Program-made: the position numbers | NCBI RefSeq assembly: GCF_054482595.1 | Contig: NZ_CM137008.1 | Length of the DNA stretch: 64,000 nucleotides | Strand: one strand, 5' to 3' | Shown here: positions 42,201 to 45,200 of the stretch, piece after piece | Position numbering within the stretch: the first letter of the stretch is position 1 | How the letters are laid out: every line of letters starts with the position of its first letter

Positions 42201-45200
42201 TCCTGACCATCAATGAGAATTAAAACACGGGAGGATGCTTCGCCACGAATGCGGATTTGTTTACGGCCTGCCAAGGAGTTGTCTGTTATCTCTACTCCGG
42301 GGATGTCCTGCAAATTATCGGCTATGGAGGCATTGGTGGAGTTCTGCAATGTTTGTTGGTCAATAACCTGTATAGTCGCCGGGCTTTCCCAAAGGTTGCT
42401 TGCCGAACGATTCGTGGTCACGACGAGCGTCTCTTCGTTGCTGATTTTTGTTTCTGAAGAAGTTGCGGTTGCAGTAGAAACTATCCCAGAAATGCATAAT
42501 GACAGAGTGGAAAGGATATAAATTCGACAAGGTATATTATATAACATTTCATCCCTCATTAATACAAAGTACAAATGATTGCTGTAATGATAATTATTTT
42601 CATTTATGCTCTCATATATCTATAATTATTGTCATCTTCATAAATTGTAAATATCAAACATTTTTGACCTTAATCATGTTTTTTGATAGATATTTTACGA
42701 CTGAACATATCCGTCGTTTCCTCTGACTCGTGTCAGTCGGTCTCTGGTTGTATCCACGGACCGCACTCTTGACATAAGAGTGCGGTCCGTGGAAAACGGA
42801 GTTGAAAAAATGGTGTCTGAAAGAAGGTACCATCATTGTGATGACAAATACTTTGGCGTGGATAATGTAATTAATTGCTGAAATTGACCGTATATGCGGT
42901 AAGACTCATATCAGTATCAGGTCCGGTTAATTGCTGATACTAATATAAACTTTTTACAAAAGGATGAATGCAGAAGGTTACTCTAATGGCCAGAGTGATG
43001 ACAATGATGGTCAGACGTTGACCTGCAGAAACTGCATTTTAATTGGTCTATAAAGTCTGCAAGAGGAATCAGGGTCAGATCAGTGAGTCTTATCGCGGCC
43101 CGAAGCTATGACTGAAAGAAGGCTGGATACAGAATTGCAACAATTTGGCAATGTCAGAACACAGAAGCTTTGCAAGCAGGTGAAAGGTTATGTCTAGCAA
43201 AAGGAGTATATCAGAATATATCTACTGATGTACAAAACACAACAATAGCTTCATGATATATAAATACGTGATGACGAGTGGTACTCCGCATGGTTATTTA
43301 ACTTCTCAGCACCACTAATGATCCTGAGCAACTTCGTATTTGGGCCATTACCATGGAGTAGAAAGCTGTGTCTGAGAATGCAGAATTTGAGAAAAGAATT
43401 CGCTTTCTTGGAGAGCTTCTGAAAATGGCACGCTAACAACGTTTTGTTAAAAAATGTGAATCACTTGCCGGGGCTGCATTTTCTATTCGAGGAGAATGTT
43501 GACGTAGATATTACAGAAATCTCAGCGCATCAGGATAAACTGCTACCTTAGGTCAACCACCAAAAGAAAATACAATACGTCCAGTTTGTATGCCTTTAAT
43601 AACACATCTTCTAAATGTTGAAGAATTATCCCGCCTGCTGAAGAACGTTGCTCTGAGTGTGATAAACCTTTTTATTCTTGATGATGTCAGCGAGAAGATG
43701 GAATATATCCCCGACTGGGTCGTGGTTACCCGGTTAAACATCTGGTGGCGCTAATAAATCTGGCAAGTCACATTCTGTTGAATGCTGTGACAGTGCCTTA
43801 CCGAGAGAGCGAAATTGTGGTGTTCTAGTGCATAGTCGCCACCATTCCGGATAATTCTATTACGTTGTTTTACAAGTTCTTTTACAGCGCAGATCTGTCG
43901 CTGACGTTGAATCAATAGCCTGGATTTCAGAACACAATGCCCGTTTGCTGGTTGTTCCGGCAGTAGCATTAATTCATTATCTGAATGAAATGTGTCAATC
44001 CACAGAAACCGCTGTCAATGACGCATTTTGTCGGACGTTAACACAAGAAAGTCTGGCTATTCCGTAATGCCATCTTATTTCGTAATGGATTGAGAATGCT
44101 GGATTTTTAATTATATTACGCGCAGTATTAATCGCGTAAATGTTTTGCGGTCAGCAACGGTGGGGGATCCATTGTTCTGTTCAATGAATACCATCATACA
44201 TTTGAATCAGGAGTCGGTATGATGATTTTGGTGACGGGGGGCGCACGGAGCGGGAAGAGTCGCCACGCAGAGGCGCTTATTGGGGACTCTTCACAGGTTC
44301 TGTATATCGCTACCTCGCAAATCCTTGATGATGAGATGGCTGCACGGATAGAACATCATCGGCAAGGCCGCCCGGTGCACTGGCGCACGGTGGAGCGTTG
44401 GCAACATCTTGATGAATTAATTCATGCAGACATTAACCCGCATGAGGCTGTGTTGCTGGAATGCGTTACCACCATGGTGACTAATCTGTTGTTTGATTAT
44501 GGCGGCGATAAAGACCCTGATGAATGGGATTATCAGGCGATGGAACAGGCGATTAATGCTGAGATTCAGTCGTTGATTGCTGCCTGCCAACGTTGTCCCG
44601 CAAAGGTTGTATTAGTGACTAACGAAGTGGGAATGGGGATTGTGCCGGAGAGTCGTCTGGCACGACATTTTCGTGATATTGCCGGGCGGGTAAATCAGCA
44701 GCTGGCCGCTGCGGCAAATGAAGTATGGTTGGTGGTTTCGGGTATTGGAGTAAAAATCAAATGAGTAAATTATTTTGGGCGATGCTCTCTTTTATTACGC
44801 GTCTGCCTGTACCGCGTCGCTGGTCCCAGGGACTGGATTTCGAGCATTATTCTCGCGGTATTATTACTTTTCCTTTAATTGGATTATTGCTTGGCGCGAT
44901 TAGCGGGCTGGTCTTCATGGTGCTGCAGGCATGGTGTGGCGTACCACTGGCGGCACTGTTTAGCGTGCTTGTGCTGGCGCTGATGACCGGGGGATTCCAC
45001 CTGGACGGCCTCGCCGATACCTGTGATGGCGTATTTTCTGCACGTAGCCGCGATCGCATGTTGGAAATCATGCGTGATAGCCGTTTAGGCACCCACGGCG
45101 GTCTGGCATTGATTTTTGTGGTACTGGCAAAGATTCTGGTGTTAAGCGAGTTGGCTCTGCGTGGCGAACCGATCCTTGCATCGCTGGCGGCAGCATGTGC

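What the first reader, a model, noticed from the sequence alone, without database searches (positions are those of the whole stretch)
42754..42792. Isolated perfect 17-bp-stem palindrome upstream of the TonB-dependent receptor
CCACGGACCGCACTCTT-gacat-AAGAGTGCGGTCCGTGG is too long and perfect to be chance, is GC-rich in an AT-rich region, and has no T-run, so it is not a simple terminator. It could be a protein-binding palindrome, an RNA stability element or a mobile-element end. The adjoining 42.8-44.2 kb region has no long ORFs and looks like decayed prophage DNA.
Basis: seen in the sequence. Interest (0 to 1): 0.3.

Follow-up and report, generated by a model that had tools for sequence, protein, structure and literature searches.

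The report
Perfected hairpin in dead transposase gene
The perfect 18-bp palindrome is real and single-copy; it lies inside the decayed tail of an IS110-family transposase gene (E. coli K-12 'yoeH'), and published K-12 RNA maps place the 3' end of an abundant short non-coding transcript at it, so it is an interesting but essentially ordinary relic.

Summary
Arms 42753-42770 and 42776-42793 are 18/18 complementary around the loop GACAT. That is about 6e-6 expected per window. No T-run follows on either strand.

The window is E. coli chromosome, upstream of cobUST. The palindrome equals K-12 MG1655 2068389-2068429.

It is not REP/BIME. There is one copy per genome, in 2755 of 5426 E. coli genomes. 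No independent copy was found in plasmid, phage, viral or metagenome collections.

Its origin is probably IS debris. The + strand frame 42760-42921 aligns to the last 54 residues of IS110-family transposases (48% identity). 42889-43175 matches that IS's right end. Intact relatives carry a 9-bp inverted repeat 37 nt apart at the same place. The perfect palindrome therefore looks like a shortened, "perfected" quasi-palindrome.

Its present effect is at the RNA level. The K-12 sequence is identical here. Published Term-seq and RNAtag-seq data put very abundant RNA 3' ends in and 6-7 nt after the hairpin on the window + strand. These lie downstream of a sigma-70 promoter that overlaps the TonB-receptor Fur boxes. 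RNase III-dependent sense/antisense duplexes also map onto one arm.

Best reading: a U-tract-less 3'-end-forming or protecting stem-loop, exapted by accident. Interest is modest.

The parts
42753..42793 (.). Perfect inverted repeat: 18-bp arms with the 5-nt spacer GACAT. As + strand RNA it forms a 19-pair stem with a 3-nt loop.
42760..42921 (+). Decayed C-terminal coding region of an IS110-family transposase. It overlaps the K-12 pseudogene yoeH (b4641) and carries two in-frame stops. The palindrome encodes ...P R T A L L T * E C G P W K...
   Evidence: tblastn against the transposase of L041: residues 284-337, 48% identity, E 8e-10. tblastn of the repaired peptide against all plasmids: 130 records with IS110-family transposases at about 50% identity, best E 7e-7. 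K-12 annotation.
42889..43175 (+). Homolog of the last 42 nt of the transposase gene plus the non-coding right end of the same IS110-family element.
   Evidence: blastn 68% identity over 300 nt to L041 2501-2796; alignment A2
43172..43760 (+). IS66-family remnant (end of tnpB and start of tnpC), about 70% identical to plasmid copies. It overlaps K-12 pseudogene yoeG.
42597..42626 (+). Sigma-70 promoter TTTTCA-18-TATAAT that reads towards the palindrome. It diverges from the receptor gene.
   Evidence: consensus scan 10/12. The same hexamers are listed as a constitutive RpoD promoter for yoeH in PMC3946193.
42633..42800 (+). Inferred short non-coding transcript of about 156-168 nt that ends at the hairpin. 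The 5' end is inferred from the promoter. The 3' ends are 42788 (5 nt inside the 3' arm) and 42799/42800 (6-7 nt after the stem), taken from K-12 data.
   Evidence: Term-seq 3' end at K-12 2068394(-), mean read counts 122,542 and 280,326 (PMC7815308). RNAtag-seq termini peak at 2068393 and 2068382/3 (PMC10687069). Coordinate conversion.
42583..42639 (.). Cluster of Fur-box-like 19-mers that overlaps both promoter hexamers and the receptor promoter region.
   Evidence: 15/19, 14/19 and 14/19 matches to the Fur consensus. PMC2189734 reports the strongest predicted Fur-site cluster in E. coli at yoeA -48, positive in a gel shift.
40401..42547 (-). TonB-dependent receptor gene (yoeA homolog), frameshifted in this strain.
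43205..43234 (-). Candidate promoter (TGTACA-18-TATACT with TG) for the RNA on the opposite strand. Published work reports that RNA as Rho-terminated and RNase III-sensitive. The K-12 Rho termination region at 2068161(+) corresponds to window 43021(-).

Best explanation
The palindrome is a relic that has acquired an RNA-level effect.

Origin (inferred). It lies in the decayed 3' coding part of an IS110-family transposase gene. Intact relatives have only a 9-bp inverted repeat there (TAT(C/T)CATGG ... CC(A/G)TGGATA) with 37 nt between the arms. In this E. coli lineage the interval is 10 nt shorter and its inner 11+11 nt have become perfectly complementary. This is most simply explained by a hairpin-templated (template-switch) copying event in a gene that was already dead.

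Present effect (shown for K-12, whose sequence is identical here; inferred for this strain). A sigma-70 promoter at 42597-42626 overlaps the Fur boxes of the divergent TonB-dependent receptor gene. It drives transcription on the + strand into the relic. The resulting RNA stem-loop (about -36 kcal/mol) becomes the 3' end of an abundant transcript of about 155-170 nt.

Mechanism (inferred). No U-tract follows the stem and the downstream RNA is G-rich. I therefore infer that most 3' ends arise when longer transcripts are trimmed back by 3'->5' exonucleases that stall at the stem; a weak Rho termination region lies about 470 nt downstream. Cleavage or nibbling 5 nt inside the stem gives the second 3' end, possibly through RNase III. 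Read-through RNA from the opposite strand pairs with this transcript, and RNase III cuts that duplex at the palindrome arm. No selected function needs to be assumed.
For: Palindrome and statistics.

Identity with E. coli, and with K-12 at this locus. The window and K-12 are identical from 42626 to 42838.

IS110 origin:
- tblastn, 48% identity over 54 aa, E 8e-10.
- Database-wide tblastn to IS110-family transposases, E 7e-7.
- 68% DNA identity of 42889-43175 to the same IS's right end.
- The relative's protein carries the DEDD_Tnp_IS110 and Transposase_20 domains.

Quasi-palindrome in relatives, with the 37-nt versus 27-nt interval.

RNA 3' ends:
- PMC7815308 supplementary file 1: 2068394(-), 122,542 and 280,326 reads, classed 'orphan'.
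- PMC10687069 supplement: termini 2068389-2068397 and 2068378-2068389, with the hairpin fold shown by the authors. [quoted passage not shown]

Promoter.

No U-tract, and G-rich downstream RNA (C/G 0.4-0.7 for 400 nt), with C/G above 1 only near 43190-43300. This coincides with a Rho termination region at K-12 2067915(-), which is window 43267, score 1.79.

General precedent: Rho-dependent transcripts end at stable U-less stem-loops that protect against PNPase and RNase II (PMC6061677 abstract).

RNase III duplex: p19-captured 21-22-nt pair AGUGCGGUCCGUGGAUACAAC / UGUAUCCACGGACCGCACUCU at this site, inside the dsRNA region MS-230 (PMC7373196 supplement). An RNase III-sensitive, Rho-terminated antisense RNA is also reported (PMC6847712).

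The ST131 variant C->T keeps a G.U pair in the + strand RNA (-33.8 kcal/mol) but gives an A.C mismatch on the - strand (-28.6).
Against: All RNA evidence comes from K-12 high-throughput data sets, not from this strain or from a targeted experiment. The transcript's 5' end is inferred from a promoter match and an in vitro RNAP-binding study only. I could not retrieve a TSS table.

The strongest 3' end lies inside the stem, 5 nt from its base. Exonuclease stalling does not typically end there.

The class described by Dar & Sorek has rut sites immediately downstream. Here the downstream RNA is G-rich, and the nearest Rho region is weak and 470 nt away.

The template-switch step rests on relatives that are only about 50% identical in protein and are nearly identical to one another. 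The window's inner left arm matches the relatives' left arm 6/11 and the reverse complement of their right arm 6-9/11, which discriminates poorly.

MAFFT prefers a different gap placement upstream of the arm.

Within E. coli the whole 42640-42838 stretch is invariant, so there is no evidence of selection on the hairpin itself.
Confidence: 0.62

Rival explanations
1. The hairpin is itself a transcription terminator that works without a U-tract (factor-independent or NusA/NusG-assisted). It stops RNA polymerase 6-7 nt after the stem on the + strand.
For: One 3'-end cluster peaks at 42799/42800, 6-7 nt after the stem, which is the usual distance for intrinsic termination. The stem is extremely stable, at about -36 kcal/mol. 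The four bases after the stem are A, which give a relatively weak rA:dT hybrid (sequence). The downstream RNA is a poor Rho substrate.
Against: There is no U-tract, which E. coli intrinsic terminators need for efficient release (established knowledge; also stated in the abstract of PMC6061677). The consensus terminator scan does not call it. RNA 3' ends exist further downstream (K-12 2068076 and 2067813, which are window 43106 and 43369), as does a Rho region at 43267, so polymerase does read through. The dsRNA region MS-230 spans the hairpin on both strands.
Confidence: 0.15
2. The main activity is RNase III processing. The 18-19-bp stem, or the sense/antisense duplex over it, is an RNase III site, and the abundant 3' end at 42788 is a cleavage product rather than an exonuclease stall.
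For: The strongest 3' end lies inside the stem, 13 nt from the loop. p19-captured RNase III products map exactly onto one arm plus 6 flanking nt. The overlapping antisense RNA is visible only in an rnc mutant.
Against: The p19 duplex ends (window 42749 and 42769 on the + strand RNA) do not coincide with the Term-seq end at 42788. The p19 method cannot report intramolecular stems (authors' statement). No RNase III cleavage map that I could open lists the site. The second 3' end, after the stem, is not explained.
Confidence: 0.15
3. It is a DNA-level site: a protein-binding operator (for example for the neighbouring ParB-like IbrB, or a regulator of the receptor gene), or a recombination or transposition site.
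For: It has perfect dyad symmetry. It lies 206 bp upstream of a regulated gene. IS2 sits exactly in the loop in one strain, and an IS3 end lies inside the left arm in many strains.
Against: The half-sites are 18 bp, far longer than known operators. The sequence is explained as transposase coding sequence. There is no second copy anywhere. The presence/absence breakpoints of the island do not coincide with it, apart from the IS3 event. Receptor orthologs in Kluyvera and Citrobacter have no such element. ibrB is a pseudogene here.
Confidence: 0.05
4. It is a member of a repeated extragenic palindrome family (REP/BIME or similar).
For: Only the general shape: a G+C-rich hairpin in non-coding DNA.
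Against: There is one locus per genome in 2755 E. coli genomes; the '2 places' per genome are the self-complementary hit. Viral contigs gave no match. The only metagenome matches outside the standard flank are the same locus with an IS3 end. Plasmids and phages gave nothing.
Confidence: 0.01

Closest known systems
Protective 3' stem-loops of Rho-dependent transcripts (Dar & Sorek 2018, PMC6061677)
   Same: A very stable stem-loop with no U-rich tail. Precise steady-state RNA 3' ends fall at or just after it. Transcription continues beyond it to a Rho-dependent region.
   Different: The described class has rut sites immediately downstream. Here the next 400 nt are G-rich, and the Rho region is weak and about 470 nt away. 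The major 3' end is inside the stem. The transcript is a non-coding read-through into IS debris, not an mRNA.
Quasi-palindrome 'perfection' by template switching (Ripley-type mutations; from my own knowledge of the field, not tested in a paper here)
   Same: An imperfect inverted repeat in relatives corresponds to a perfect one here. Clustered changes and a length change all increase complementarity.
   Different: The classical cases are single events seen in reporter genes. Here the ancestor is unknown, and the inference rests on relatives that are about 50% identical.
IS110-family insertion sequences (DEDD transposase plus Transposase_20 domain; long non-coding ends)
   Same: The C-terminal 54 codons and about 250 nt of the right non-coding end are homologous to plasmid-borne IS110-family elements.
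   Different: Only the last sixth of the gene survives, with stop codons. The catalytic part and the left end are gone. The perfect palindrome is absent from the intact relatives examined.
REP/BIME elements
   Same: A G+C-rich hairpin that can stabilise upstream RNA.
   Different: Single copy, an unrelated sequence, and derived from coding DNA.

Membership tests
REP/BIME repetitive extragenic palindromes | Many dispersed copies per genome sharing a consensus | tested here: not met
   One locus per genome in 2755 of 5426 E. coli genomes. No independent copy in viral, metagenome, plasmid or phage collections.
Intrinsic (Rho-independent) terminator | G+C-rich stem-loop | tested here: met
   18-19 bp, about -36 kcal/mol
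Intrinsic (Rho-independent) terminator | U-rich tract immediately 3' of the stem | tested here: not met
   The + strand continues AAAACGGAG and the - strand continues UACAACCAG. The terminator scan does not call it.
Protective stem-loop at the 3' end of Rho-dependent transcripts | Stable stem-loop without a U tract, with a precise steady-state 3' end at or just after it | tested here: met
   K-12 public data: 3' ends at 2068394, 2068393 and 2068382/3 on the minus strand, which are window 42788-42800
Protective stem-loop at the 3' end of Rho-dependent transcripts | Rho-dependent termination, with a rut site immediately downstream | tested here: inconclusive
   C/G ratio is 0.4-0.7 for 400 nt downstream. 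The nearest Rho region on this strand is at window 43267, with a low score of 1.79.
Protective stem-loop at the 3' end of Rho-dependent transcripts | 3' end depends on PNPase/RNase II trimming | not testable with these tools
   Needs pnp/rnb mutants
IS110-family insertion sequence (remnant) | Homology to the C-terminal part of an IS110-family transposase | tested here: met
   48% identity over 54 aa, E 8e-10. 130 plasmid records with IS110-family transposases, best E 7e-7. The Pfam domain itself ends before this segment, so hmmscan finds nothing.
IS110-family insertion sequence (remnant) | N-terminal DEDD catalytic domain and left end | tested here: not met
   No similarity left of about 42740. 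That part has been deleted, so this is a remnant and not an element.
IS110-family insertion sequence (remnant) | Homologous non-coding right end | tested here: met
   68% identity over 300 nt, 42889-43175 against L041 2501-2796
Template-switch perfected quasi-palindrome | Imperfect inverted repeat at the homologous site in relatives | tested here: met
   A 9-bp outer repeat (7-9 Watson-Crick pairs) 37 nt apart in L041-L044. The inner 11+11 nt are only 4/11 complementary, against 11/11 and a 27-nt interval in the window.
Template-switch perfected quasi-palindrome | The changed arm is a copy of the complement of the other arm rather than diverged native sequence | tested here: inconclusive
   The inner left arm matches the relatives' left arm 6/11 and the reverse complement of their right arm 6-9/11. 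No close intact relative was found.
RNase III substrate | RNase III-dependent cleavage products map to it | tested here: met
   p19-captured 21-22-nt duplex at the arm, for the sense/antisense duplex. Cleavage of the hairpin itself was not shown.

The most novel reading that the evidence does not exclude
The roughly 160-nt hairpin-ended transcript is not noise. It would be an unannotated, Fur-controlled regulatory RNA of E. coli, born from a divergent promoter reading into IS110 debris, with the perfected palindrome exapted as a U-tract-independent terminator or stabiliser.
Probability: 0.12. Interest if true: 0.55.

Novelty: new member of a known kind. Interest (0 to 1): 0.3.

Why it matters
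It accounts for one of the longest perfect hairpins in this part of the E. coli chromosome without invoking a new system. The hairpin comes from transposase coding sequence that was reshaped into a perfect palindrome, and it now fixes the 3' end of an abundant 'orphan' RNA seen in several K-12 transcriptome maps.

It also corrects how the K-12 pseudogene yoeH should be read: as the tail of an IS110-family transposase. It gives a concrete natural example of IS debris creating RNA-processing signals. Finally, it flags an unannotated abundant transcript next to the strongest predicted Fur-site cluster in E. coli.

None of this changes a general principle.

Tried and rejected
- **REP/BIME or another repeat family: rejected.** The sequence is single-copy. 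A viral contig scan found nothing. A metagenome scan, using a pattern built to exclude the normal E. coli flank, gave only the same locus with an IS3 end.
- **Rfam:** only a chance sub-threshold miRNA hit, because the query is a hairpin.
- **Conservation with the receptor gene: not seen.** Orthologs in Kluyvera, Citrobacter, Raoultella, Providencia and others (66-78% aa) share no upstream DNA with E. coli. Some have ordinary terminators there.
- **Covariation within E. coli: uninformative.** The stretch 42640-42838 is invariant apart from one ST131 SNP.
- **My first reading of GTAAGACTCA at 42899 as an IS66 left inverted repeat was wrong.** That stretch is IS110-family right-end homology, and IS66 homology starts only at 43172.
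- **Pfam on the decayed frames and on the 60-aa ORF spanning the palindrome:** nothing.
- **Word-indexed protein search with the repaired peptide:** no candidates.
- **Papers or supplements I could not open:** Thomason 2015 TSS map, Lybecker 2014, Sedlyarova 2017, and the supplements of PMC6847712, PMC6212723 and PMC6061677. The Cappable-seq supplement had no entry. As a result, the exact position of RAP#6850 and an experimental TSS are missing.
- **Gordon 2017 RNase III tables:** no entry for the site.
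Full report
**1. The observation**

The sequence at 42753-42793 is TCCACGGACCGCACTCTT-GACAT-AAGAGTGCGGTCCGTGGA. The repeat finder reports 18-nt arms, 100% complementary, 5 nt apart.
- It is the longest perfect stem in the window by six base pairs. The 12-bp runners-up are normal A/T-flanked terminators.
- A stem of 18 bp or more is expected 6e-6 times per window.
- In 100 Markov-1 random windows the longest stem was 12 bp.
- The arms are 61% G+C in flanks of 30-36%.
- Neither strand has a T-run after the stem, and the terminator scan does not call it.

**2. Where we are**

The window is E. coli chromosome. It is 100% identical to strain EC7518, in the island upstream of cobU-cobS-cobT. 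The palindrome equals K-12 MG1655 2068389-2068429. It lies between yoeA and the pseudogenes yoeH/yoeG, inside what the K-12 record calls cryptic prophage CP4-44. yoeA is a TonB-dependent receptor pseudogene whose start codon corresponds to window 42547 on the - strand.

The window and K-12 are identical from 42626 to 42838. They differ at only two positions in 42540-42960.

**3. Not a repeat family**

- blastn with 11-nt words finds the 51-nt region in 2755 of 5426 complete E. coli genomes, at one locus each. The second 'place' per genome is the self-complementary hit.
- The 293-bp intergenic stretch has no diverged paralog.
- Viral contigs gave no match.
- Plasmids and phages gave no independent match.
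- I ran a metagenome scan with a pattern that keeps the inner 11+11 nt but excludes the normal E. coli flank. It returned three contigs, all the same locus with an IS3 end at 42760.
- Rfam has nothing.
- Orthologs of the receptor in other genera have unrelated upstream DNA.

**4. What the DNA is derived from**

The plasmid search showed about 70% similarity of 42889-43700 to IS elements. Dissecting one hit (L041, plasmid CP057768.1) gave three pieces:
- 42889-43175 matches the last 42 nt and the roughly 250-nt non-coding right end of an IS110-family element (68% identity).
- 43172-43386 and 43412-43732 match IS66-family tnpB/tnpC.

My earlier reading of 42899 as an IS66 inverted repeat was therefore wrong.

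Protein-level evidence for the IS110 origin:
- tblastn of that IS110-family transposase against the window aligns residues 284-337 (AALLTKEPGPWITELKK...NHVSIR) with the + frame 42760-42921 (TALLT*ECGPWKTELKK...THISIR). Identity is 48%, E 8e-10.
- The repaired peptide finds IS110-family transposases in 130 plasmid records at about 50% identity, best E 7e-7. It finds nothing closer.
- The relative's full protein has the DEDD_Tnp_IS110 and Transposase_20 domains.

So the palindrome lies inside the dead tail of an IS110-family transposase gene, which is what K-12 annotates as yoeH. In frame it reads P R T A L L T stop E C G P W K.

**5. How a perfect palindrome could arise there**

This step is inferred. 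Four intact relatives (L041-L044, which are close to one another) carry TAT(C/T)CATGG ... CC(A/G)TGGATA at the homologous place. This is a 9-bp inverted repeat with 7-9 Watson-Crick pairs, 37 nt apart, and its inner 11+11 nt are only 4/11 complementary.

The window has the same outer repeat (TATCCACGG / CCGTGGAAA). Its interval is only 27 nt, and the inner 11+11 nt are 11/11 complementary.
- The right arm is close to the relatives' coding sequence (up to 9/11).
- The left inner arm matches the relatives' left arm 6/11 and the reverse complement of their right arm 6-9/11.

A single hairpin-templated copying event would explain both the 10-nt loss and the perfect pairing. In that event, 21 native nt would be replaced by an 11-nt complement of the other arm. 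The evidence is compatible with this but not decisive. The relatives are distant, and MAFFT places the gap differently.

**6. What it does now**

Published K-12 data bear on this directly.

*Promoter.* A constitutive RpoD promoter TTTTCA-18-TATAAT is listed for yoeH (PMC3946193). It is the 10/12 consensus match at window 42597-42626 on the + strand. It overlaps Fur-box-like 19-mers (15/19 and 14/19). These belong to the strongest predicted Fur-site cluster in E. coli, at yoeA -48, which was positive in a gel shift (PMC2189734).

*3' ends.* Term-seq (PMC7815308, supplementary file 1) lists an 'orphan' 3' end at 2068394 on the minus strand. Mean read counts are 122,542 and 280,326 in two conditions, and the authors' flanking sequence is this hairpin. 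That position is window 42788, 5 nt inside the 3' arm. An independent RNAtag-seq analysis (PMC10687069) finds two terminus clusters, 2068389-2068397 (peak 2068393) and 2068378-2068389 (peak 2068382/3). The second is window 42799/42800, 6-7 nt after the stem. [quoted passage not shown] With a start near 42633, the RNA would be about 156-168 nt.

*Read-through.* Polymerase reads through the hairpin. Further 3' ends lie at window 43106 and 43369. A weak Rho termination region is at window 43267, where C/G first exceeds 1. The 400 nt after the hairpin are G-rich.

*Opposite strand.* A Rho termination region lies at window 43021. PMC6847712 describes an RNase III-sensitive, Rho-terminated RNA of about 150-200 nt that extends to about 700 nt with bicyclomycin.

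*RNase III products.* p19-captured RNase III products map exactly onto one arm plus 6 flanking nt: AGUGCGGUCCGUGGAUACAAC (3065 reads) and UGUAUCCACGGACCGCACUCU (340 reads). They lie inside the dsRNA region MS-230 (PMC7373196 supplement).

**7. Mechanism I commit to**

The stem-loop is a U-tract-less 3'-end-forming or protecting structure for a short + strand transcript. The end 6-7 nt after the stem fits exonuclease stalling on transcripts terminated further downstream. That is the class described in PMC6061677. The end inside the stem may be RNase III cleavage or nibbling. Sense/antisense pairing across the palindrome gives the RNase III duplex.

Shown: the structure, its uniqueness, its IS110 context, and the K-12 RNA ends.

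Inferred: the 5' end, the trimming mechanism, the template-switch origin, and the transfer from K-12 to this strain (the sequence is identical).

One small hint favours the + strand RNA. The ST131 C->T variant keeps a G.U pair on that strand only.

**8. Rivals**

- U-less intrinsic termination, about 0.15.
- RNase III processing as the main activity, about 0.15.
- A DNA-level protein or recombination site, about 0.05.
- REP-like repeat, refuted.

**9. Novelty and score**

Several data sets have recorded the RNA end or the dsRNA here. None that I could read explains the hairpin or its origin. It is a new member of known kinds: a protective 3' stem-loop, a perfected quasi-palindrome, and IS debris. 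Interest 0.3.

Noticed in passing
L004 1670-1690 and 2990-3010 (window 42770-42775); L003 2980-3000, L038-L040 (window 42760): IS elements have hit the palindrome. In strain KE51, IS2 sits exactly in the loop with a 5-bp duplication TGACA. An IS3 right end abuts 42760 inside the left arm, with everything to the left (including the receptor gene) deleted. This IS3 configuration is seen in many E. coli genomes and in three metagenome contigs.
   Followed up: partly
window 42597-42626 versus alignment A1 columns 58-87: The + strand promoter is TTTTCA-18-TATAAT in the window, K-12 and some other lineages. In B2 strains (Nissle, ST131), which keep an intact receptor gene and a better Fur box, it is TTATCA-18-TGTGAT. 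The abundant K-12 RNA may therefore be lineage-specific.
   Followed up: partly
window 42930-43175: Homolog of the non-coding right end of an IS110-family element. In IS1111-type members this end encodes the guide (bridge/seek) RNA. Two interleaved inverted repeats lie here (42829-42845/42995-43011 and 42896-42908/43084-43096). No Rfam hit.
   Followed up: no
L041 2353-2407, L042 1482-1536, L043 1479-1533, L044 1482-1536: Intact IS110-family transposase genes on Escherichia plasmids carry a 9-bp inverted repeat 37 nt apart near codons 277-296 (I/F-H-G ... G-P-W-I). Whether it matters to the IS is unknown.
   Followed up: partly
window 40401-42574 and 39386-39802: The TonB-dependent receptor gene is frameshifted, and the neighbouring ibrB-like gene has an internal stop in this strain. 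Both are intact in B2 strains such as ZH063.
   Followed up: partly
window 42797-42881: A 23-codon ORF (ATG at 42810) preceded by GGAG lies just after the hairpin. A second predicted 9-bp stem lies at 42810-42833.
   Followed up: no
window 43924-44067: Remnant of a cobalamin (cbi) biosynthesis gene directly upstream of cobU. It marks the old boundary where the cbi part of the operon was lost.
   Followed up: no
window 42724-42737: A small hairpin, CTGAC-TCGT-GTCAG, lies 16 nt upstream of the palindrome, inside the inferred transcript.
   Followed up: no
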